Virus record (IMG/VR): IMGVR_UViG_2648501669_000022
Coordinates: 1-12,974 of that record
Source of the DNA: a virus
Taxonomy: Duplodnaviria; Heunggongvirae; Uroviricota; Caudoviricetes
Length of the DNA stretch: 12,974 nucleotides
Reading direction: 5' to 3' (one strand)
Part shown: piece by piece, positions 1 through 7,980 of the stretch
Numbering within the stretch: position 1 is the first letter of the stretch
Layout: each line of letters begins with the position of its first letter
Notes under the pieces: model-generated
What the model was told of the DNA's origin: nothing
Seen by the model: only the letters and a program-made list of their open reading frames with translations
The model's database searches: none
Made by a program: the position numbers and the translations under genes

Positions 1-1215
1 ATGCTGCTTTCAGACCTTGCCATCAGGCGCGCGAAGCCGAAAGAAAAGGCTTATACACTCAATGACGGTAACGGGCTTTCGTTGCTCATTGAGCCGAACG
101 GTTCGAAAGGGTGGCGACTGCGCTACAGGTTTGCAGGAAAGCCCAAAATGTTGTCGTTGGGTGTGTACCCTGATGTGTCTCTGTCTGATGCCAGGGCGGC
201 AAGGGATGAGGCTAAAAGGCTTCTTGCTGGTGGTATAAATCCAAGTGAGGCCAGAAAAGCCCAAAAGCGAGAACAGGCGAGCAAATTTGGCAATACTTTT
301 GAGGGTATTGCTCGTGAATGGTACGAAAAGCGGATCGACAGGTGGTCATCGTCATACGCCGAGGAAATGATCGAGACGTTTGAAAAAGATGTTTTTCCGT
401 ACATTGGCGGTAGGCCGATCGCAGAAATTAAGCCGATGGAATTGCTGGCGGTTCTTTCCCGTCTTAATGACCGTGGTGCGACTGAAAAATTGCGTAAGGT
501 TCGCCAGCGATGCGGCGAGGTGTTCCGGTACGCAATCATCACCGGACGCGCCGAATATAATCCAGCCCCTGACCTGGTGAGCGCATTTGCTCCACATAAA
601 AAAGAGCATTACGCCTATCTGAAGGCCGACGAACTGCCGGAATTTTTCCGCGTTTTTAATACGTACACCGGAAGCCAGATCGTCAAACTGGCAATGCGGC
701 TATTAATTCTGACAGGTGTCAGACCCGGGGAATTACGGCAGGCAGAATGGCAGGAGATCGATTTTGATAATCGTTTGTGGGAAGTGCCTAAAGAACGAAT
801 GAAGATGCGCCGTCCGCATTGTGTGCCATTACCAGAACAGGCGATAAAAATACTGGAGCAGTTAAAAAACATGACAGGCCAGTATCAGTTTATTTTCCCC
901 GGTCGTATTCACCACAGTAAGCCAATGAGTGAAATGGCGATGAATGTGCTCATTCGTCGTATCGGCTATGCCGGGCGCGTTACTGGTCATGGATTCCGGC
1001 ACACCATGAGCACCATTTTGCATGAGCAGGGCTATAACACTGCGTGGATAGAGACGCAGCTCGCACACGTCGATAAAAACTCAATTCGTGGCACATACAA
1101 CCATGCGCAATATCTGGATGGTCGCCGGGAGATGCTCCAGTGGTATGCCGACTATATGGATTCGCTCGAGCATGGCGGAAATGTGGTGCATGGTGAGTTC
1201 GGAAAATGCGGGTGA
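1..1215 (+). CDS. int: Tyrosine recombinase / integrase, P4-type
   Basis: 404-aa ORF. N-terminal arm-binding-like region (AKPKEKAYTLNDGNGLSLLIEPNGSKGWRLRYRFAGKPKMLSLGVYPDVSL) typical of P4-family integrases; C-terminal catalytic signature HGFRHT plus downstream Tyr (RGTYNHAQY). Stop TGA at 1213-1215. Confidence 0.9.
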   Translation: MLLSDLAIRRAKPKEKAYTLNDGNGLSLLIEPNGSKGWRLRYRFAGKPKMLSLGVYPDVSLSDARAARDEAKRLLAGGINPSEARKAQKREQASKFGNTFEGIAREWYEKRIDRWSSSYAEEMIETFEKDVFPYIGGRPIAEIKPMELLAVLSRLNDRGATEKLRKVRQRCGEVFRYAIITGRAEYNPAPDLVSAFAPHKKEHYAYLKADELPEFFRVFNTYTGSQIVKLAMRLLILTGVRPGELRQAEWQEIDFDNRLWEVPKERMKMRRPHCVPLPEQAIKILEQLKNMTGQYQFIFPGRIHHSKPMSEMAMNVLIRRIGYAGRVTGHGFRHTMSTILHEQGYNTAWIETQLAHVDKNSIRGTYNHAQYLDGRREMLQWYADYMDSLEHGGNVVHGEFGKCG

Positions 1216-1343
1216 CTGGTTGAGTATACAGTAGTAGACTTTGAGCGACGAAAGAAAAGGCTGTGTCTAGGGTCGCTCCCGAAAATCCGTACACCTCGAC
1301 GGACTGGTACAGCCACTACAGTAGAGGACGCTGAGGTGTGCGT

Positions 1344-2141
1344 ATGATTGATATTCATGCCGAATTAAACGAATACAAAAAAGATTTTATTTCTTTACGT
1401 GAATTTCTTGAGGTCGTGCTTAAGGTCGCTGGTGATGATTATGATGTTTCAGATGTCATAACTTGGATACTCAGGAGAATAAGCGGAGAACATATCCGCC
1501 TGTACACAGTAAATGAATTTAAGCTGTTGGAATCTTTTTGTAGCCCGTATCGGGATGAATTTGATTATGATGTTCTTTATAGAAATCTGAATGCGGTTCG
1601 GAAACGTGGTTGTTTACCTGGTGAGAGGGATGAAAATGGTTTTCTGGTGTCCGGTTATTGGGAAGATCCCGAATTTGAGAACATTGGATTTATAAGGGGT
1701 GAAATTTTCGCAATTTTTCCCGATGTCCTTGACGCGTTAACGAAGCTGGAAGGCGCTAACTCTTCTGAAAATGACGAGGCACAAGGACGCGATATTGAAA
1801 AGAAAGAGTTGCGTACAGAGGATGATTTATTATCCCAAATCGCAATGCTGGAAAAAGAAAACGCAGAGTTAAGGGCAAGGATAGAGCAGTTAGAGCAAGA
1901 GCGCCCGATACACTTATATAAATACTGGGATAAAGACCCATTAGCTAAGGCTATTGAGATTAGAAACAGAGAGTGGGCCAATTACGATCCAGAAAATGAT
2001 TTTGCCACCAGGGGAAATCAAGAAGCGATAACCAGGGAGCTTAAGCAGTGGGGGGCAAGTAATGCACTTGCAACGCTCATAGAGAGGACTGCCTGCCCTA
2101 TTAACCGAGACAACAGCCAAAAGAACGCAAAGCCGGATTAA
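1344..2141 (+). CDS. Hypothetical cargo protein (265 aa) with a central leucine-zipper-like coiled coil; function unknown
   Basis: ATG at 1344 with GAGGT 6 nt upstream (the track's 1338 start is a GTG lying on the SD). Visibly AT-richer codon usage than its neighbours. Heptad-like segment LLSQIAMLEKENAELRARIEQLEQER. Followed immediately by a strong intrinsic terminator. No catalytic motif recognised. Confidence 0.65.
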   Translation: MIDIHAELNEYKKDFISLREFLEVVLKVAGDDYDVSDVITWILRRISGEHIRLYTVNEFKLLESFCSPYRDEFDYDVLYRNLNAVRKRGCLPGERDENGFLVSGYWEDPEFENIGFIRGEIFAIFPDVLDALTKLEGANSSENDEAQGRDIEKKELRTEDDLLSQIAMLEKENAELRARIEQLEQERPIHLYKYWDKDPLAKAIEIRNREWANYDPENDFATRGNQEAITRELKQWGASNALATLIERTACPINRDNSQKNAKPD

Positions 2142-2154
2142 CGCACCATACCGC

Positions 2155-2197
2155 ATACCCTGAGGGTGATTTACTGTTACCCTCAGGGTATTTTTTT
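2155..2197 (+). terminator. Rho-independent terminator after the cargo gene
   Basis: Perfect 13-bp stem ATACCCTGAGGGT (2155-2167) / ACCCTCAGGGTAT (2179-2191), 11-nt loop, then a run of 7 T (2191-2197). Confidence 0.8.
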
Positions 2198-2214
2198 ATC
2201 TTCCCCGTCAATTT

Positions 2215-2302
2215 TACCATCACCCTTAGGGTAGATTTCCTCCCGATTACCATCACCCTTATGGTTAATTTCCTTCCGGTAACCATTAGGCCTGAGGGTA
2301 TG
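2215..2302. repeat. Tandem 33-bp direct repeat (2.6 copies) carrying ACCCT-N-AGGGT palindromes, upstream of alpA
   Basis: Unit 1 (2215-2247) and unit 2 (2248-2280) are 28/33 identical; partial third unit 2281-2302. Palindromes ACCCTTAGGGT (2222-2232), ACCCTTATGGT (2255-2265), CCTGAGGGT (2291-2299); the same palindrome forms both arms of the upstream terminator. Confidence 0.7.
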
Positions 2303-2368
2303 AAAATATTCGTTATTTCTGTGCCATGATTACCTCGTCAAATTGAGTAGACGTTATGAGGTAAATAT

Positions 2369-2566
2369 ATGTCAAATACGCTTATTCGTTTAACAGAAGT
2401 TCAGCGTAGAACTGGATATAGCAAGGCATGGATTTATCGCCTTATGGGGCAAGGTAAATTTCCTGCATCAGTTAAAATTGGCTCGCGAGCTATTGCTTTC
2501 GTTGAGAGTGAAATTGACGAGTGGATTAATCAGCGTATTGCGGAATCACGCGGAACAGCTACCTGA
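2369..2566 (+). CDS. alpA: AlpA-family (Xis/MerR-like HTH) transcriptional regulator
   Basis: 65 aa; RLTEVQRRTGYSKAWIYRLMGQGKFPASVKIGSRAIAFVESEIDEWINQR matches the AlpA/Vis-type signature found next to P4-family integrases. GAGG 7 nt upstream of the ATG. Confidence 0.85.
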   Translation: MSNTLIRLTEVQRRTGYSKAWIYRLMGQGKFPASVKIGSRAIAFVESEIDEWINQRIAESRGTAT

Positions 2567-2643: not shown

Positions 2644-3444
2644 ATGAAACTGCGAAAAACGCCCGTACAGGGGCAGGGCTTCGTTCGGCCTGAAAACCAG
2701 AATCTGCAAAATTTCGGCGAAATTATCCCGATTATTTCCGGCGTTATTGGCGGGAGTGAAACCACTATTGTTAGCGCCAGAGCGTTACATAAGGCGTTAG
2801 GTGTAGGGCGCGTTTTCCGTTCGTGGATCAAGGGGCGCATTGAAGAATACGGGTTCACGGAAGGCGTGGATTATGAGGTTGTTGAATATTTGAGCCGACC
2901 CGATCCGGTGAGCGCAAAATCTCGCCAGCAAACCGCTCTTGAGTACATCATCACAGTGAACATGGCGAAAGAACTGGCGATGGTCGAACGTACCGAACAG
3001 GGCCGCGCCGTTCGCCAGTACTTTATCAAATGCGAGGAGGAGCTACACAAGGTAGCGCCAGTGCGTTCCGCAGCGTTACGCCGGGAACTGAAAGCCCGTA
3101 TCACCGTTGCCAGCTACTTTAAGCCAATGTGTGCCGCGCTGGAGGCGTACCGGGCTGAACTGGGTAAAAACACGTTCCAGCACCACTACACCACGGAAGC
3201 CAATATGCTGGCGCGTATCGTGCTGGGTGGCATGACTGCAAAACAGTGGGCGCAGGCGAACGGCATCACAGGCGAACCACGCGACCACATGAGCACGTTG
3301 CAGCTTGAGCACCTTTCTTACCTTGAGCAGAGCAATATCACGCTGATTGAGTTAGGCCAGGGCTACCACCAGCGGAAAGCTGAATTAATTCGTCTTTCGC
3401 AGCGTTGGTTAGCCCGTCGCATGGAGGAAAACAGCCATGTGTAA
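2644..3444 (+). CDS. AntA/AntB-type antirepressor-like protein (N-terminal domain), C-terminal domain unknown
   Basis: 266 aa; N-terminal segment SARALHKALGVGRVFRSWIKGRIEEYGFTEGVDYEV resembles the AntA/AntB N-terminal domain as I remember it. AGGAG 5 nt upstream of the ATG. Confidence 0.6.
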   Translation: MKLRKTPVQGQGFVRPENQNLQNFGEIIPIISGVIGGSETTIVSARALHKALGVGRVFRSWIKGRIEEYGFTEGVDYEVVEYLSRPDPVSAKSRQQTALEYIITVNMAKELAMVERTEQGRAVRQYFIKCEEELHKVAPVRSAALRRELKARITVASYFKPMCAALEAYRAELGKNTFQHHYTTEANMLARIVLGGMTAKQWAQANGITGEPRDHMSTLQLEHLSYLEQSNITLIELGQGYHQRKAELIRLSQRWLARRMEENSHV

Positions 3445-3750
3445 CGCTCTGACCGTTACAAAAAGAAAAAGCGCCCCGTTGCCGGAGCGCCTTTGTGAAC
3501 GAATAGCCTACTGCGCCATATTGCTTACTGTCTACGAGGCAGATTATAGCGTTGTGGTCGCACAGAGTGAAGGCGCAGATCACCGTTACTACAGCACACC
3601 AGAAATGCAGAATATTTTGCTGCAAAATGTCGTTGGCCACGCTGTCCGGAAAGCAAAAAATTTTGCTGGTGGCGTGACTGATACGATTTTTTCTGGTTGC
3701 TCGGTGCTGATCAACTTAACCTGGACTTATGTACAACATTGCAACTATTC

Positions 3751-3897
3751 CTACTTTAAGCTGAATGTAACTTTACCTATATCATTAGAGGTATGGTCGC
3801 GCTTGACCTCAATTTCACCATTTTGTAGCCCTGCTACAAAAAAATATAAAAGTGTCAATGTTGCTGCAATCAGTAACCATTTTCCAAAAATATACAT
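3751..3897 (-). CDS. Small membrane peptide (48 aa), not in the ORF track
   Basis: Translated by hand from the minus strand: MYIFGKWLLIAATLTLLYFFVAGLQNGEIEVKRDHTSNDIGKVTFSLK. One predicted TM helix at the N-terminus. Starts 21 nt downstream of the Arc-like stop on the same strand; AT-rich; weak SD-like AAGGG upstream. Confidence 0.35.
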   Translation of the reverse strand: MYIFGKWLLIAATLTLLYFFVAGLQNGEIEVKRDHTSNDIGKVTFSLK

Positions 3898-3918
3898 TCT
3901 TGATTTTACCCTTAATCG

Positions 3919-4092
3919 TCAACCTTTTGGCACGATGCCTCGCTGTTGTAATTCTTTGCGGAGCACTCGTTTAATCCAGGTAGCTAATGAGGTGTCGCCG
4001 TCTGCTTTGGCTGCCTCCTCAAGTTGTGCCCTAAATTCTTCTGGTAGCCGCATTTGGTATGGTGGCGATCGTTTTTCTAATGGTGTTGACAT
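3919..4092 (-). CDS. Arc/MetJ-type ribbon-helix-helix DNA-binding protein (57 aa), not in the ORF track
   Basis: Translated by hand from the minus strand: MSTPLEKRSPPYQMRLPEEFRAQLEEAAKADGDTSLATWIKRVLRKELQQRGIVPKG. Beta-strand-like PYQMRLP followed by two helices is the Arc/Mnt pattern. The start codon is embedded in a palindromic operator. Confidence 0.65.
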   Translation of the reverse strand: MSTPLEKRSPPYQMRLPEEFRAQLEEAAKADGDTSLATWIKRVLRKELQQRGIVPKG

Positions 4093-4144
4093 GGTAATTA
4101 CCCATAATTACTATAGTTACACGGTAATTACCATTGTACTTACC
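4093..4144. promoter_or_regulatory. Divergent promoter/operator region: perfect 10-bp palindrome GGTAATTACC x2 plus a degenerate third site
   Basis: GGTAATTACC at 4093-4102 (abutting the Arc-like start codon) and 4123-4132, 30 bp centre to centre; degenerate copy GTACTTACC at 4136-4144; TATAGT-like -10 for the minus strand at 4111-4116. Confidence 0.55.
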
Positions 4145-4228
4145 ATTGCAAAAAAAACAACGCCCCGGACTGCGGGAACAGTACCAGGGCGTCTAACCAC
4201 CAACGATAGCGAAAGTATCGAGGTAGCT

Positions 4229-4432
4229 ATGATAAATCATACCACACACCCGCAAGGGCGGGACTCGCACAACCTGAATAAATACATCTGGCGTTTTATC
4301 GCCCTGAGCACGGCACAACCGCGCGTAATTCACATCGAGGCCACCAGCGAACAGGAAGCACGCCAGCAATCTCCTGATGGCTGCGTGATGGTATTCGCCG
4401 CCCGTATTCGCCAGGAGGTGCACCATGCATAA
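4229..4432 (+). CDS. Hypothetical protein (67 aa), first gene of the replication operon
   Basis: This is only the 3' part of the 331-aa track ORF (3437-4432). ATG at 4229 with GAGGT 4 nt upstream; the upstream 800 nt of that ORF overlaps the Arc-like gene and the intergenic region and translates to low-complexity sequence. Stop overlaps the next start. Confidence 0.5.
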   Translation: MINHTTHPQGRDSHNLNKYIWRFIALSTAQPRVIHIEATSEQEARQQSPDGCVMVFAARIRQEVHHA

Positions 4433-4987: not shown

Positions 4988-5278
4988 ATGAAAAAGAAAA
5001 ATTCTGGCTTTACTGCCAGCGGCCCCGCTCGGCCTGAAATCAGACACGGAGATATTTACCGCGACACCAGACGTGGGGGACGAGTGGTTATTCGTCACGT
5101 TACGCCAGGCAATATCACCTACCGCCGTGAGGCTTACGAATATGACTGCGTAATGCCGCGCCGTCAGTTTGAGCGTGATTTTATTCTGGTGGAAAACAAA
5201 CAACAGGCGGTGGCAAGACGTGCAGCCACGAATATTAAAAAAATCCGGGCAATGTTGGTTGCGGGAGGTAAGAAGTGA
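4988..5278 (+). CDS. Hypothetical basic protein (96 aa)
   Basis: ORF with AGGAAAA upstream; stop overlaps the GTG start of the helicase gene. No family recognised with confidence. Confidence 0.5.
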   Translation: MKKKNSGFTASGPARPEIRHGDIYRDTRRGGRVVIRHVTPGNITYRREAYEYDCVMPRRQFERDFILVENKQQAVARRAATNIKKIRAMLVAGGKK

Positions 5279-6687
5279 AAAACGCACCGAATTTGAAATA
5301 TCAGCCGAAGGATAAATTCACTGAGGTAATCATTTTTGCCGGGACGGACGCTTACTCCCATGCTCAACACTGGATTGAAAGCGAAGGACGGAAACACGGC
5401 GATAATGTGCCACCTGTTTACCTGGGGCCAAAGCAACTGGCAGACCTGGCGAATATCCGCATTATTGACGAGAAACGCCGCTTTGCACGTGTCTATCTCG
5501 CGGGGGAGATCGAACCAATCCAGATCAATGCTATCGCTGAAAAGCTGGCGCTGGCTGGCGTACAGGAGGCGAAATTATACAAAGGTATCACCGACCGGGA
5601 GCCGGAGAACTGGCGCGACTACCTGCAACGGATCCGCGAACAGGCAGAGCGCGAAGAAATGCTTACTGACGAGCAATACAGCCAGCGAAAAACCACACTA
5701 CCAATGAGTATTGGATCTGCAGGGTACGACACACAGCTTGATTATGTCGTTAAGGGCGTGATTCCGGCTAATTCATTGTGCAGCACATACGGCGCGAGCG
5801 GTTCCTATAAATCGTTCCTCGCGTGTTCCTGGGCGTGTCATGTTGCCACGGGTCGCCACTGGGGAGGCCGCAGGGTGGCGCATGGTTCGGTGATGTATGT
5901 CGTCGGTGAAGGTGGCATTGGTGTCCCTCGTCGTATCAAAGCATGGGAAATCGTTAATGATGAACGGGTGAAAAATCTGTACCTGGTAAACCGCCCGATT
6001 TTTCCGGCGGTCCCGCTTGATGTTGATGAAATGGTCATCGCTTCCCGTCAGGTTGAACGGGAAACGGGTAAACCGGTACGCATGATTATTCTGGATACGC
6101 TGGCGCGTTGCTTTGGCGGTAATGATGAAAATGACGCGCGGGATATGGGGGCGTTTATCCGTGGATGTGACGAACTGAAACGACGCACGGGGGCCACGGT
6201 ACTGGTGGTTCACCATTCCGGCAAGGATGAAACAAAAGGGGCGCGTGGTTCCAGTGCATTTCGTGCATCTCTGGACGCTGAATACCGTATTCGCCGTGAA
6301 GGTGCGGACAGTGAAGCCCTGGTTATCTCCTGCACCAAAATGAAGGACGCGGAGGAACTGAAAGAGGCTGCATATGATTTACGCGTGGTGGAGCTTTTTA
6401 CCGACACTGACGGGGAGTTAATCACGTCGCTGGTGGTTGTGGATAAGCCGCGCCCACCTGTTGAACTGGAACGCATCGAGGAGGCCGGGAACAAGACGGA
6501 AAATCACGCTGCGCTATGGCAGTGCATCAGAACGCGAACAGCACACGGGGAGGCGTGCACTATCGCCCTTCTCCGCGATGATATGAAAAAGCTGGGGTAT
6601 GAAATGAAAAACTTCCGGCGCTGGCTGTACAAGCTGGAAAGCGACGGCGTAATCGCTATTGACGGTGATTATGTGCGCCCACTGTAA
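5275..6687 (+). CDS. RepA/DnaB-like RecA-fold replicative helicase (the family I remember as AAA_25), probable replication initiator of the island
   Basis: 470 aa; GTG start with GGGAGGT 5 nt upstream. Walker A-like GASGSYKS, Walker B-like ILDTLARCF, and VLVVHHSGK motif typical of RepA-type helicases. Its stop abuts the iteron array. Confidence 0.8.
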   Translation: MKNAPNLKYQPKDKFTEVIIFAGTDAYSHAQHWIESEGRKHGDNVPPVYLGPKQLADLANIRIIDEKRRFARVYLAGEIEPIQINAIAEKLALAGVQEAKLYKGITDREPENWRDYLQRIREQAEREEMLTDEQYSQRKTTLPMSIGSAGYDTQLDYVVKGVIPANSLCSTYGASGSYKSFLACSWACHVATGRHWGGRRVAHGSVMYVVGEGGIGVPRRIKAWEIVNDERVKNLYLVNRPIFPAVPLDVDEMVIASRQVERETGKPVRMIILDTLARCFGGNDENDARDMGAFIRGCDELKRRTGATVLVVHHSGKDETKGARGSSAFRASLDAEYRIRREGADSEALVISCTKMKDAEELKEAAYDLRVVELFTDTDGELITSLVVVDKPRPPVELERIEEAGNKTENHAALWQCIRTRTAHGEACTIALLRDDMKKLGYEMKNFRRWLYKLESDGVIAIDGDYVRPL

Positions 6688-7075
6688 AAAGTGAGGAGCA
6701 AAAGTGAGGATGGCGGGTAATTTAACAAAAAATCAACGCCACTCCTCACTTTCTCACCTGTATATAGGTCAAAAAGTGAGGAATGAAAAACATATTGTAA
6801 AACAAGACATTACAACAACAAGAAAAACAGGTGAGGAGCAGGACGGGAATAACAAAAAGTGAGGAACAAAAGTGAGGAATGGTGAGTTAATAGAAATGAG
6901 GTAATAAAAATAACAGGTAGGTTAAAAAACACACCATGCAAGATATTAACTAAAACTTAACTATTTACCTCACTTTTGCGTATATATAAGGATTAAAAAG
7001 TGAGTACTTAAAAATACATTTAAAATCATATTGTTATTAACTTCATAAATTTTCACTGTGCAGCAGGTGAGGAAT
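6688..7075. repeat. Putative origin of replication: AT-rich iteron array, core GTGAGGA
   Basis: Direct copies of GTGAGGA at 6691, 6704, 6776, 6831, 6859, 6872 and 7067; inverted copies at 6743-6749 (TCCTCAC) and 6967-6973 (ACCTCAC); variants GTGAGTT (6882) and GTGAGTA (7010). Most are preceded by an A-run; the region is strongly AT-rich. Confidence 0.7.
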
Positions 7076-7153
7076 TAAAAAATTAGGAATGTTAAAAATG
7101 AAAACAGAATGTTGTGTCAGTGCCGTTGGGCAACGTAGCAATCAGTAAAAACG

Positions 7154-7696
7154 ATGGGGCAAAGCATGACTAAGCTGACCATTAACAGAAAACCTAAAGG
7201 CATTTACGGCACGCCGCAGAAAACGACGCAGGCGGCGCAGGAGCAGGATAAAACCACGTCGGCGCATAAAGTGATGCCCGGTAACCAGAAAGCGCAGCAG
7301 AAGCCCACAGGGGCGACACCGTGGCGGCATATGACCAAGCGCCAGCGCAAAAACCGCAGGCGCGTTAACCGCCTTATCGAACTGTGGCCAGAATTATTCA
7401 GCCGGGAAGCACCGAAGCCGCTTAAGGTGGGGATATTTGACGACCTGATGCAGGATCTCGCCGTCAGGGGGCTGGCATTCGGGCCAGGGGCATTACGTGC
7501 GACGCTGGCATCTTATGCGCAGTGTCCGCGCTATTACCGCGCCTTAATGGCTGGTGGGGTACGCTACGACCTGAAAGGCCAGCCGTGCGGCGAGGTGACA
7601 CCACAGGAACAACAGGACGCAGAAACGCGGCTGGTGGCGCTGAATGAGAAGCGCAAACGTCAGCGCCGGGCAGCAAAGGAGAAAACAGGCGCATGA
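7154..7696 (+). CDS. ProQ/FinO-domain RNA-binding protein with a basic N-terminal extension
   Basis: 180 aa; LIELWPELFSREAPKPLKVGIFDDL...RYDLKGQPCGEVTPQE parallels the ProQ N-terminal/FinO signature as I remember it (PLKIGIF.DL ... R.DLDG.PCGEL). The first ~70 aa are Lys/Arg/Gln-rich. Exact start uncertain (ATG 7154 or 7166). Confidence 0.7.
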   Translation: MGQSMTKLTINRKPKGIYGTPQKTTQAAQEQDKTTSAHKVMPGNQKAQQKPTGATPWRHMTKRQRKNRRRVNRLIELWPELFSREAPKPLKVGIFDDLMQDLAVRGLAFGPGALRATLASYAQCPRYYRALMAGGVRYDLKGQPCGEVTPQEQQDAETRLVALNEKRKRQRRAAKEKTGA

Positions 7697-7980
7697 TTCA
7701 CGACAGCAAAGCGGAAGCACTGGAAGCGCGTGGTCTGTACCGGAGAGCGGCGGCGCGGTGGGCTGAGGTCATCATGCTGGCGAATGATGACAAGGCACGG
7801 GAACAGGCGGCAAAACGTCGCGCGGAATGTATCCGCAAGGCAGCACGCCCACCAGCAAGGCAGGATAATTTCGGGGAGATGCGCGAAACCATCAGCCGGG
7901 CACATGCCGGGATGGGATTACATCAGCCCAATGGTAAGGCATTCAGGAAATACCCTGGATCGAAAAATTGCAGTCAGTGA
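7693..7980 (+). CDS. PerC-family transcriptional activator-like protein
   Basis: 95 aa; N-terminus MIHDSKAEALEARGLYRRAAARWAEVIM fits the PerC/Pch pattern (E..G.WRRAA.RW) from memory. ATGA overlap with the upstream stop; followed by tandem terminators. Confidence 0.6.
   Translation: MIHDSKAEALEARGLYRRAAARWAEVIMLANDDKAREQAAKRRAECIRKAARPPARQDNFGEMRETISRAHAGMGLHQPNGKAFRKYPGSKNCSQ

What the first reader, a model, noticed from the sequence alone, without database searches (positions are those of the whole stretch)
1344..2141. AT-rich single-gene cargo inserted between int and alpA: candidate accessory or defence gene
The gene sits in the integrase-adjacent slot, which in P4-like satellites is an established hotspot for anti-phage cargo. 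It has visibly lower GC than the flanking backbone, its own strong terminator, and flanking direct repeats. The 265-aa product has an N-terminal globular part, an acidic linker, a leucine-zipper-like coiled coil and a C-terminal domain, and matches no family I recognise. An R-x5-H spacing (RRISGEH) exists but is far too short to call HEPN.
Basis: partly seen in the sequence, partly recalled or inferred. Interest (0 to 1): 0.7.

Follow-up and report, generated by a model that had tools for sequence, protein, structure and literature searches.

The report
Modular switch gene upstream of alpA
The gene between the integrase and alpA of this E. coli phage satellite is probably not free defence cargo. 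It looks like part of the satellite's on/off switch: a protein with a swappable front half, a leucine zipper and a conserved new-fold tail that always travels with a phased array of palindromes in front of the master regulator gene alpA.

Summary
The ORF is real: 1344-2141, 265 aa, annotated "hypothetical" in RefSeq. Its low GC, strong terminator and domain layout are confirmed. The "flanking direct repeats" and the P4 framing are not.

The element is a Gram-negative PICI-type satellite. The protein (X) matches no Pfam, NCBIfam, PADLOC or PHROG family and no PDB fold.

Comparison with about 60 related loci shows a fixed module:
- the Rfam int-alpA RNA (RF02996, window 1260-1327) as the leader of X;
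- a hypervariable N-terminal domain;
- an invariant Leu heptad;
- a conserved 70-aa four-helix C-terminal domain (CTD);
- 3-6 helically phased palindromes (ACCCTnAGGGT) that start 10-20 bp after the stop codon, the last about 75 bp before the alpA ATG;
- alpA.

The palindrome had 130 hits in that zone against 2 in 311 kb elsewhere.

The palindrome type follows the CTD type. It does not follow AlpA (97% identical AlpA with different repeats) or the Int arm domain (94% identical with different repeats).

Best reading (about 0.45): X is a dimeric operator-binding regulator of alpA with a swappable sensor domain, a functional analogue of SaPI Stl. DNA binding is inferred, not shown; the CTD is not a recognisable HTH.

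Rivals are defence cargo, an excision cofactor like PICMI IOLG, or a protein adaptor.

The parts
1..1215 (+). Tyrosine integrase (P4-type arm-binding, central and catalytic domains). Probably co-transcribed with X.
   Evidence: Pfam PF13356, PF22022 and PF00589. The consensus scan found no + strand terminator-like site between int and X.
1260..1327 (+). int-alpA RNA motif (Rfam RF02996), ending 16 nt before the X start codon. It is the conserved structured leader of the X family. The second hairpin loop, ACACCUCG, is complementary to the X Shine-Dalgarno sequence GAGGUG.
   Evidence: cmscan gives 45.5 bits against a gathering score of 35.8. The same motif lies immediately upstream of X or its ORF-A half in 26 of 32 family loci, and in 0 of 5 loci with other slot genes. 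An alternative fold pairs 1285-1297 with 1333-1345, covering the SD and AUG, but it is not statistically distinctive (z = -1.35).
1344..1763 (+). X N-terminal domain (residues 1-140): globular alpha/beta, acidic (pI 4.5), hypervariable or swapped between relatives. In many relatives its first ~100 residues are a separate ORF.
   Evidence: AF2 pLDDT about 78-92. At least 32 BLAST-level N-terminal clusters among 126 family proteins. Split forms seen. No Pfam hit. hhalign against AlpA gives probability 1%.
1764..1814 (+). Acidic disordered linker (about residues 141-157).
   Evidence: pLDDT below 50 for residues 139-157. Composition.
1815..1901 (+). Leucine zipper (residues 158-186; Leu162/169/176/183). 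Presumed parallel dimerisation helix.
   Evidence: Model helix 159-186. L169, L176 and L183 are invariant. Heptad check.
1899..2111 (+). Conserved C-terminal domain (CTD, residues 186-256): four-helix bundle ending in the signature A-x-A-I-E-x-V-A-C-P-I-x-R. It holds the T222-R-G-N-Q226 segment that varies with operator type.
2155..2198 (+). Intrinsic terminator of X: operators O1 and O2 pair with each other, followed by T7.
   Evidence: dG -27.7, z = -7.9. Not conserved as a hairpin in all relatives; for example L030 keeps one palindrome.
2157..2167 (.). Operator-like palindrome O1, ACCCTGAGGGT.
2179..2189 (.). Operator-like palindrome O2, ACCCTCAGGGT.
2222..2232 (.). Operator-like palindrome O3, ACCCTTAGGGT, inside the 33-nt direct repeat unit 2214-2246.
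2255..2265 (.). Operator-like palindrome O4, ACCCTTATGGT (1 mismatch), inside the 33-nt repeat unit 2247-2279.
2289..2299. Promoter-proximal degenerate site O5, GGCCTGAGGGT. Its centre is 75 nt before the alpA ATG. The position is conserved (-74 to -76) in 11 of the 28 loci listed.
   Evidence: Sequences.
2322..2330 (+). Possible extended -10 element (TGCCATGAT) of the alpA promoter. Read by eye only.
   Evidence: Inference from the conserved TGnNATNAT in relatives (sequences). The consensus scan found no canonical sigma-70 site on the + strand.
2330..2364 (+). alpA 5'-UTR hairpin that includes the alpA Shine-Dalgarno sequence. The CTCGTAA...TTACGAG version is conserved in relatives.
   Evidence: Weak energy (-8.2 kcal/mol, z = -1.1).
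2369..2566 (+). alpA, the master activator of Gram-negative PICIs and the presumed target of the switch.
   Evidence: Pfam PF05930, E = 2.4e-19. Its role comes from PMC6092414 and PMC11773190.

Best explanation
X is a core regulatory component of this PICI-type satellite, not free cargo.

Proposed mechanism:
- X is made from the int-X transcript under control of the structured int-alpA RNA leader.
- It dimerises through its leucine zipper.
- Through its conserved C-terminal four-helix domain it occupies a helically phased array of five ACCCTnAGGGT palindromes. The array runs from just past its own stop codon to the -35 region of the alpA promoter.
- Bound there, X most likely blocks read-through from int-X and keeps alpA silent.
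- The hypervariable N-terminal domain is the input. Binding of a helper-phage protein would release or convert X, so that alpA is transcribed, AlpA amplifies itself, and the island excises and replicates.

Functionally this would be the Gram-negative counterpart of the SaPI master repressor Stl. A sensor-activator version is equally compatible with the site positions: same parts, opposite sign, with the proximal site at about -43 of the guessed start.

Shown here: the conserved module, the motif enrichment and phasing, and the co-variation with the CTD.

Inferred: that X itself binds the palindromes, the sign of regulation, and sensing of a helper protein.
For: 1. Strict synteny. X, or its split two-ORF form, lies directly upstream of an alpA-like gene in the loci fetched from E. 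coli, Salmonella, Yersinia and metagenomes, and in nearly all the IMG/VR loci examined.

2. Constant-variable-constant architecture. The RF02996 leader is in 26 of 32 family loci. N-terminal domains fall into at least 32 clusters. The zipper leucines are invariant. The CTD is conserved and always terminal.

3. Motif enrichment. ACCCTnAGGGT (up to 1 mismatch) occurs 5 times in the window against 0.16 expected, 4 of them within 110 nt between X and alpA. Across 43 non-identical loci there are 130 hits in the 275 bp after the X stop, against 2 in 311 kb elsewhere.

4. Conserved phased layout. In the window, site centres are 22, 43, 33 and 34 bp apart (about 2, 4, 3 and 3 helical turns). In the relatives listed, the last detected site centre is about 75 or about 108 nt before the alpA ATG in nearly all, although the sequence between sites has diverged.

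5. Double dissociation.
- L002, L077 and L078 have AlpA 97% identical to the window's but a divergent X, and a different repeat (AATAGTn5CC type). Homology to the window resumes only about 21 nt before the alpA ATG.
- L004 has an Int arm domain 94% identical to the window's but again the other repeat.
- L006 and L016 have Int 35-40% and AlpA 34-40% identical and an unrelated N-terminal domain, but a CTD 57-59% identical, and keep the ACCCTnAGGGT-type sites.

6. Class table. CTDs with TR[GAV]N[QR] have at least 2 sites in 28 of 31 loci. xPKA, KPTQ and TAPT classes have none in 9 of 9 loci and carry ACTATnATAGT or AATAGTn5CC instead.

7. Literature leaves the role open. [quoted passage not shown]
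Against: - The CTD has no net positive charge (pI 6.8) and the whole protein is acidic (pI 4.7).
- The CTD coding region and the array are physically adjacent, so part of their association could be linkage rather than function.
- Most loci with other palindrome types also have a different AlpA. The clean recombinants are few: the L002 lineage, L004, and the L006/L016/L056/L058 lineage.
- The prototype EcCICFT073-like island (L003) has an unrelated slot gene (hhalign probability 0.2%), so this cannot be the universal Gram-negative PICI switch.
- In Vibrio PICMI115 the gene in this slot is required for excision rather than repressing it (PMC10803314).
- The sign of regulation and the promoter position are guesses.
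Confidence: 0.45

Rival explanations
1. X is accessory anti-phage cargo (a single-gene sensor-effector or abortive-infection protein) carried in the 5' hotspot of the PICI. The variable N-terminal domain recognises phage components, and the conserved C-terminal domain is the effector or an oligomerisation platform. The palindromes are unrelated promoter elements.
For: - The slot content varies between related islands.
- PICIs are reported to carry immune systems at their 5' or 3' ends (PMC11364771).
- A hypervariable domain joined to a conserved one is typical of immune sensors.
- One family member carries an Effector-associated domain 9.
- The gene has low GC.
Against: - No PADLOC hit and no enzymatic or toxic domain.
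- The 70-aa helical CTD has no catalytic signature, and the HEPN-like His is not conserved.
- A cargo cassette would not be expected to keep a conserved leader RNA, a fixed position directly upstream of alpA across genera, and an array whose sequence tracks its own CTD.
- There are no relatives in 50,697 phage genomes or outside this context.
Confidence: 0.15
2. X is an integration/excision accessory factor, the counterpart of IOLG (the int-adjacent gene of Vibrio PICMI satellites). It would work with Int and AlpA in the excisive complex rather than controlling transcription.
For: - In PICMI115 the gene between int and alpA is required for helper-induced excision and transfer. The slot holds 13 unrelated families of unknown function (PMC10803314).
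- X is co-directional with int and probably co-expressed with it.
Against: - X does not overlap int. A 128-nt spacer with a structured RNA separates them.
- The palindromes are more than 2 kb from the attL end. None occur upstream of or within int in loci that include that flank (2 hits in 311 kb outside the array).
- The array does not track the Int type.
- Homology to IOLG could not be tested.
Confidence: 0.12
3. The palindromes are bound by something else, such as a helper-phage activator (as P2 Ogr acts on P4 late promoters) or a host factor. X's C-terminal domain is then a protein-protein module that modulates that factor, AlpA or RNA polymerase at the promoter.
For: - The CTD is neither basic nor HTH-like.
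- alpA is known to be switched on by an unidentified helper function (PMC6092414).
- The most conserved part of the CTD, the terminal AIExVACPIxR helix, does not change when the operator type changes. That fits a constant protein partner.
Against: - A host or helper factor gives no reason for the repeat type to switch with the X type in islands of the same host species that share alpA and antA (L002/L077/L078 against the window).
- The TRGNQ segment changes in step with the half-site, ACCCT against ACTAT.
Confidence: 0.15

Closest known systems
Stl / Rpr master repressors of SaPIs and other Gram-positive PICIs
   Same: - Satellite-encoded, next to int, and expressed in the quiescent state.
- Highly divergent between islands while the regulated module is conserved.
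- Proposed to couple induction to a specific helper-phage protein.
- Operator sites lie in the regulatory intergenic region.
(Stl properties are as summarised in PMC6092414.)
   Different: - No sequence or fold similarity.
- Stl has an N-terminal HTH and is transcribed divergently from the genes it controls. X is co-directional with alpA, has its conserved putative DNA-contact domain at the C-terminus after a leucine zipper, and has a structured RNA leader.
- Repression and anti-repression are unproven for X.
int-alpA RNA motif (Rfam RF02996)
   Same: The window carries a bona fide member at 1260-1327, above the gathering score.
   Different: Rfam files it as a candidate sRNA named after the flanking int and alpA genes. 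Here it consistently ends 13-22 nt before the start codon of X (or of its ORF-A half), and its consensus 3' end contains the Shine-Dalgarno sequence. That suggests a cis-acting leader of this unannotated gene family. The original description is known to me only from memory (Weinberg et al. 2017) and was not read here.
IOLG / ICG genes of Vibrio PICMI satellites
   Same: A single gene of unknown function in the slot between int and alpA, present in many unrelated families, and apparently constitutively expressed with int (PMC10803314).
   Different: iolg overlaps int by 1-13 nt and is needed for excision. X is separated from int by a 128-nt structured spacer and is linked to an operator array next to alpA. 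Homology could not be tested.
PICI 5'-end immune systems and P4 int-psu defence hotspot
   Same: An int-adjacent variable position in a phage satellite (PMC11364771; PMC10803314, citing the P4 hotspot).
   Different: No similarity to any catalogued defence protein. The element is not P4-like. X keeps conserved flanking regulatory parts that cargo cassettes lack.
bZIP-type and MerR-type dimeric regulators
   Same: A dimerising coiled coil adjacent to the presumed DNA-contact domain. The 11-13-bp palindromic sites fit a symmetric dimer.
   Different: In X the zipper precedes a four-helix bundle, not a basic helix. There is no MerR/HTH_17 signature.

Membership tests
Catalogued anti-phage defence systems (PADLOC-DB v2) | Significant match of the protein to a defence-system HMM | tested here: not met
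   0 families at E <= 1 for X.
HEPN nuclease | Conserved R-x4-6-H motif in a helical domain | tested here: not met
   RRISGEH is at residues 44-50. His50 is replaced by G, T, P and others in homologues. There is no HEPN Pfam hit.
Gram-negative PICI (EcCI-type satellite), for the surrounding element | Co-directional int, alpA and primase/replicase genes | tested here: met
   int 1-1215, alpA 2369-2566, and an AAA_25 replicase-like protein at 5275-6687. The near-identical island in EC11 carries a full 'DNA primase family protein' there.
Gram-negative PICI (EcCI-type satellite), for the surrounding element | Replication origin of iterons flanking an AT-rich stretch downstream of pri-rep | tested here: met
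   At least 5 copies of AAAAAGTGAGGA-type iterons in 6685-7079, where GC is 0.29-0.31. The criterion comes from PMC6092414.
Gram-negative PICI (EcCI-type satellite), for the surrounding element | Helper-phage-dependent induction and packaging | not testable with these tools
   Needs experiments.
   None of the scanned ORFs matches Psu, Sid or Delta. No C4 or isrK hit in the window at E <= 1, although several relatives do carry C4/isrK.
Rfam RF02996 int-alpA RNA | Covariance-model score above the gathering threshold | tested here: met
   45.5 bits against 35.8, at 1260-1327 on the + strand.
Stl-like satellite master repressor (functional class) | Recognisable DNA-binding (HTH) domain | tested here: inconclusive
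Stl-like satellite master repressor (functional class) | Cognate operator sites in the regulatory region that change with the regulator | tested here: met
   Enrichment of 130 against 2 hits. Phasing. Co-variation with the CTD and not with AlpA or Int. This is comparative evidence, not binding evidence.
Stl-like satellite master repressor (functional class) | Divergent transcription from the controlled operon | tested here: not met
   X and alpA are on the same strand.
Stl-like satellite master repressor (functional class) | Derepression by direct binding of a helper-phage protein | not testable with these tools
   Needs genetics or biochemistry.
AlpA / Xis / MerR-type winged helix (for the N-terminal domain) | Profile similarity to HTH_17 / Phage_AlpA | tested here: not met
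   hhalign of the N-terminal domain alignment A9 against the AlpA alignment A6 gives probability 1%. No Pfam hit at E <= 0.2. The beta-alpha-alpha-beta-beta order in the model is only suggestive.
PICMI IOLG | Start codon overlapping the int stop by 1-13 nt | tested here: not met
   There is a 128-nt gap (int ends at 1215, X starts at 1344).
PICMI IOLG | Sequence homology to an IOLG family | not tested
Leucine-zipper coiled coil | At least 4 heptad-spaced Leu in a continuous helix, conserved in relatives | tested here: met
   L162, L169, L176 and L183. L169, L176 and L183 are invariant. Model helix 159-186.

The most novel reading that the evidence does not exclude
X and its relatives are the missing helper-phage-responsive master switch of a large group of Gram-negative PICIs.
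- They use a previously undescribed four-helix DNA-recognition domain, dimerised by a leucine zipper, that reads a phased palindrome array in front of alpA.
- They carry a cassette-like N-terminal sensor, exchanged between conserved flanks, that sets which helper phage can induce the island.
- The orphan Rfam 'int-alpA' RNA is the translational leader of this gene.
- In split versions the sensor half ends in an exact copy of the SSB C-terminal tip, hinting that the signal involves the host SSB interactome.
Probability: 0.3. Interest if true: 0.85.

Novelty: new variant of a known kind. Interest (0 to 1): 0.7.

Why it matters
[quoted passage not shown] This gene family gives a concrete, testable candidate with defined parts: protein, operators and leader RNA.

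If it is the switch:
- its swappable N-terminal domain would explain helper specificity;
- the paired CTD and operator types would give orthogonal parts for engineering PICI-based delivery vehicles;
- the int-alpA RNA motif would gain a function;
- automated pipelines and readers that file every int-adjacent unknown gene in satellites as 'defence cargo' would need a caveat.

Tried and rejected
Searches with no informative result:
- Family searches on X gave only coiled-coil noise: Pfam, PADLOC, PHROGs and NCBIfam.
- Pfam on 99 family members found almost nothing: one LacI-type ligand domain, one EAD9 and one LysR HTH, each in a single member.
- AFDB50 was not available.
- The PDB sequence profile search found nothing.
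- The scan of GTDB species-representative genomes with the CTD profile found no locus.
- tblastn against 50,697 phage genomes found no match.

Ideas tested and dropped:
- That the N-terminal domain is an AlpA/Xis-like winged helix. hhalign probability was 1%, so this was rejected as unsupported.
- HEPN. Rejected because the His is not conserved.
- Integrase arm sites as an explanation of the palindromes. Rejected because L004 has a 94% identical arm domain but different repeats, and because the sites are far from att.
- AlpA autoregulatory sites as the explanation. Rejected for the array because L002, L077 and L078 share AlpA but not the array.
- A link to EcCIMP1_002, the roughly 70-aa 'UvrB-like' slot gene of EcCIMP1 (PMC11773190). 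It could not be established; all cluster members examined are named 'hypothetical protein'.
- The leader and alpA-UTR hairpins. They are not thermodynamically distinctive on their own (z = -1.35 and -1.06).
Full report
**What is at the coordinates**

The window opens with a P4-type tyrosine integrase (1-1215). A 128-nt spacer follows, then an ATG-started ORF at 1344-2141 of 265 aa (here called X). A 227-nt spacer separates it from alpA (2369-2566) and an AntA-family gene (2644-3444), all on the + strand. Further on lie an AAA_25 replicase-like gene, a ProQ/FinO-domain gene, a PerC-like gene and a DUF2213 gene.

RefSeq annotates the same 265-aa CDS as 'hypothetical protein' in a near-identical island of E. 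coli EC11. In that island the neighbours are an Icd-like gene, a DNA primase, ProQ/FinO and PerC. This is the layout of a Gram-negative phage-inducible chromosomal island (PICI), not of P4. No Psu/Sid/Delta matches were found and no C4 or isrK RNA is present.

**Checking the observation**

- X is 41.6% GC, against 50.4% for int and 53.8% for antA. The X-alpA spacer (41.9%) and alpA (42.9%) are equally low.
- The terminator is real and strong: hairpin 2155-2191 plus T7, dG -27.7 kcal/mol, z = -7.9.
- The AF2 model confirms the domain layout. There is a confident N-terminal domain, a disordered acidic linker (139-157), a long helix at 159-186 and a helical C-terminal domain.
- Leu162/169/176/183 form a heptad, and three of the four are invariant in homologues.
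- No Pfam, PADLOC, PHROG or NCBIfam family matches.
- The RRISGEH motif exists, but its His is not conserved.
- The 'flanking direct repeats' do not hold up. The 19-nt pair lies entirely upstream of X, and the only truly flanking pair is a 10-mer.

**The family**

A word-indexed search found 43 clusters, all called hypothetical. They come from Escherichia, Salmonella, Citrobacter, Yersinia and metagenomes.

The alignment shows a striking pattern. The N-terminal ~140 residues are poorly conserved or replaced outright. The zipper leucines and a ~70-residue C-terminal domain (CTD) are highly conserved; the CTD consensus is ERPIxL..Y.DDDPL.LAI.IRN.EWANYDP.ND..TRGNQ.AI..EL..RGF....A.SIE.VACPI.R.

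A profile of the CTD, scored against 1.84 billion representative proteins, recovers only 115. In these the domain is essentially always at the very C-terminus, with a median of 2 residues after it. The regions in front of it fall into at least 32 unrelated clusters. Almost none of those regions has a Pfam domain. Named members come from Serratia, Klebsiella, Morganella and Pasteurellaceae as well. No phage genome encodes a relative.

A CTD-only AF2 model is very confident (pLDDT 93) and is a four-helix bundle. Neither it nor the full model has a significant PDB neighbour, and no solved relative is found by sequence.

**Context**

In every locus fetched through homologues, the gene sits directly upstream of an alpA-like gene. 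These loci are Salmonella L005 and L006, Yersinia L012, and metagenomic L008, L014-L016. In most an integrase lies immediately before it.

A scan of IMG/VR gave 60 more loci, with CTD identity from 100% down to 38%. Nearly all have the same arrangement.

In many of them X is split into two ORFs. ORF-A corresponds to X residues ~1-100. ORF-B carries a short N-terminal segment, the zipper and the CTD.

**Is the slot variable?**

Yes. The X region is in 171 of 5426 complete E. coli genomes, while parts of the surrounding backbone are in 612.

Islands with related int, alpA or antA carry other single genes in this slot:

| Locus | Slot gene | Relation to X |
|---|---|---|
| L003 | 208 aa | no detectable relation |
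| L079 | 302 aa | no CTD-like motif seen by eye; not formally compared |
| L002 / L004 / L077 / L078 | 234-260 aa | CTD a distant relative (hhalign probability 87%) |

**Two conserved non-coding parts flank the variable domain**

*Upstream.* Rfam's int-alpA RNA (RF02996) matches window 1260-1327 above its gathering score.
- The same motif lies 13-22 nt before the start of X or ORF-A in 26 of 32 family loci tested. It is absent from 5 of 5 loci with other slot genes.
- Its consensus ends in the Shine-Dalgarno sequence. The loop of its second hairpin (ACACCUCG) can alternatively pair with the SD and AUG of X, although that fold is not statistically distinctive.
- The motif therefore looks like the cis-acting leader of this gene family rather than a free sRNA.

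*Downstream.* The X-alpA spacer holds the palindrome ACCCTnAGGGT four times (2157, 2179, 2222, 2255) plus a degenerate promoter-proximal copy (2289).
- The window as a whole has 5 matches at up to 1 mismatch, where 0.16 are expected.
- Across 43 non-identical family loci there are 130 matches within 275 bp after the X stop codon, against 2 in the remaining 311 kb.
- The layout is conserved while the sequence between sites drifts. The first site is centred 10-20 bp after the stop codon in most loci.
- In the window, spacings are 22, 43, 33 and 34 bp (about 2, 4, 3 and 3 helical turns). In the relatives listed, the last detected site centre is about 75 or about 108 nt before the alpA ATG in nearly all.
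- In the window O1 and O2 also pair to form the terminator. Relatives gain or lose 33-nt repeat units, giving 3 to 5 sites in near-identical islands.

**Who reads the palindromes?**

Comparative genetics points to X's CTD.

| Loci | Compared with the window | Repeat type |
|---|---|---|
| L002, L077, L078 | AlpA 97% identical (identical helix-turn-helix and wing), antA shared, but the divergent X | AATAGTn5CC type starting at the stop codon; DNA homology to the window resumes about 21 nt before the alpA ATG |
| L004 | Int 93% identical, arm-binding domain 94%, but the other X type | the other array |
| L006, L016, L056, L058 | Int 35-40% and AlpA 34-40% identical, unrelated N-terminal domain, CTD 57-59% identical | ACCCTnAGGGT / ACCGTGAGGGT type kept |

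Short ORF-B forms and N-terminal domains of at least six unrelated kinds all go with the same palindrome.

Grouping loci by the CTD segment aligned to T222-Q226 gives:

| CTD segment | Loci with at least 2 ACCCTnAGGGT | Other motif present |
|---|---|---|
| TR[GAV]N[QR] | 28 of 31 | none |
| [TS][TVI]PS | 8 of 9 | some ACTATnATAGT |
| xPKA and KPTQ | 0 of 6 | ACTATnATAGT |
| TAPT (L002/L004 type) | 0 of 3 | AATAGTn5CC |

**Caveats**

- Direct DNA binding is not shown.
- The CTD is not a recognisable HTH, carries no net positive charge (pI 6.8), and the whole protein is acidic (pI 4.7).
- The CTD coding region abuts the array, so some of the association may be linkage.
- In most loci the AlpA clade changes together with the array. 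The clean recombinants are few lineages.
- The EcCICFT073-like island has an unrelated slot gene.

**Mechanism proposed**

X is made from the int-X transcript under control of its leader RNA. It dimerises through the zipper and occupies the phased array through the CTD.

Given an array that starts at its own stop codon and ends at about the -35 region of a promoter read by eye (TGCCATGAT at 2322-2330), the most economical role is to insulate alpA from int-X read-through and to hold PalpA off. The variable N-terminal domain would be the input for a helper-phage protein. That is the logic of SaPI Stl.

A sensor-activator reading is equally allowed by the geometry, with the proximal site about -43 from the guessed start. 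It would match the phenotype of the slot gene iolg in Vibrio PICMI115, which is required for excision (PMC10803314).

The literature leaves room for such a factor. [quoted passage not shown]

**Rivals kept open**

- Single-gene defence cargo. PICIs do carry immune systems at the 5' end (PMC11364771).
- An IOLG-like excision cofactor.
- A model in which another factor binds the palindromes and X's CTD is a protein adaptor.

I put about 0.45 on the operator-binding regulator, and 0.12-0.15 on each rival.

**Verdict**

The 'cargo/defence' reading is only partly supported. What is there is an uncharacterised, satellite-specific, modular gene family embedded in a conserved regulatory cassette: leader RNA, variable domain, zipper, new-fold CTD, operator array, alpA. 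It is a credible and directly testable candidate for the alpA switch of many Gram-negative PICIs.

Noticed in passing
L040 3423-3743; also L042 2940-3269, L044 2808-3176, L048 3348-3701, L012 5659-5985 (related loci, not the window): Where X is split in two, the N-terminal half (ORF-A, 101-150 aa) ends in ...PPMDFDDDIPF. That is identical over 11 residues to the C-terminal tip of E. coli SSB (PDB 1eqq_A residues 168-178), the hub that recruits genome-maintenance proteins. The fused X of the window lacks it (ERDENGF at the equivalent place).
   Followed up: partly
Across relatives it behaves as the 5' leader of the X family: it ends 13-22 nt before the start codon and is absent from islands with other slot genes.
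   Followed up: yes
window 2330-2364: A hairpin in the alpA 5' UTR includes the alpA Shine-Dalgarno sequence. The CTCGTAA-N13-TTACGAG version and the TAGACGTTAYRAGGT stretch are conserved even in islands whose upstream array differs (L002, L004). The energy is weak (-8.2 kcal/mol).
   Followed up: partly
window 6685-7079: AT-rich stretch (GC 0.29-0.31) with at least 5 copies of an AAAAAGTGAGGA-type iteron just after the replicase-like gene. This is probably the satellite's replication origin.
   Followed up: partly
window (whole) compared with L004, L006, L012, L036, L040, L044, L048, L056, L066, L069: Most related islands carry the P4-type immunity RNAs C4 and/or isrK downstream of the Bro/AntA zone. 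The window has no such match even at E <= 1.
   Followed up: no
window 2214-2279; L026, L030, L034: The operator-bearing 33-nt unit is tandemly duplicated in the window. Its copy number varies (3 to 5 palindromes) among islands that are otherwise nearly identical, so the array expands and contracts by recombination.
   Followed up: partly
window 7154-7980: A ProQ/FinO-domain protein (180 aa, basic N-terminal extension) overlaps the start of a PerC/ANR-like small regulator. A PerC-like gene in the related EcCIMP1 was reported to repress LEE1 (PMC11773190).
   Followed up: no
window 3437-4432 and 3919-4092 (-): The 331-aa + strand ORF looks spurious. The region holds a 57-aa Arc-like / YlcI-YnfO family gene on the minus strand, the only convincing minus-strand gene seen. 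In relatives it also holds Icd-like fragments.
   Followed up: no
L001 27415-29157 (EC11 island): The near-identical island in strain EC11 ends with an 'ATP-dependent nuclease' (580 aa) where the window has a 680-aa protein and an HTH/TerS-like ORF. The 3' end of these islands is therefore a separate variable (cargo) zone.
   Followed up: no
L079 1501-2409; L003 3892-4518: Other islands with related int/alpA carry unrelated single genes in the same slot. By eye they share short N-terminal (F-x-[ST]-L-x-[EQK]-A) and mid-protein ([LIV]-I-[ST]-[RK]-x-[DE]-[LI]) motifs with X-family members. No profile support was obtained.
   Followed up: partly
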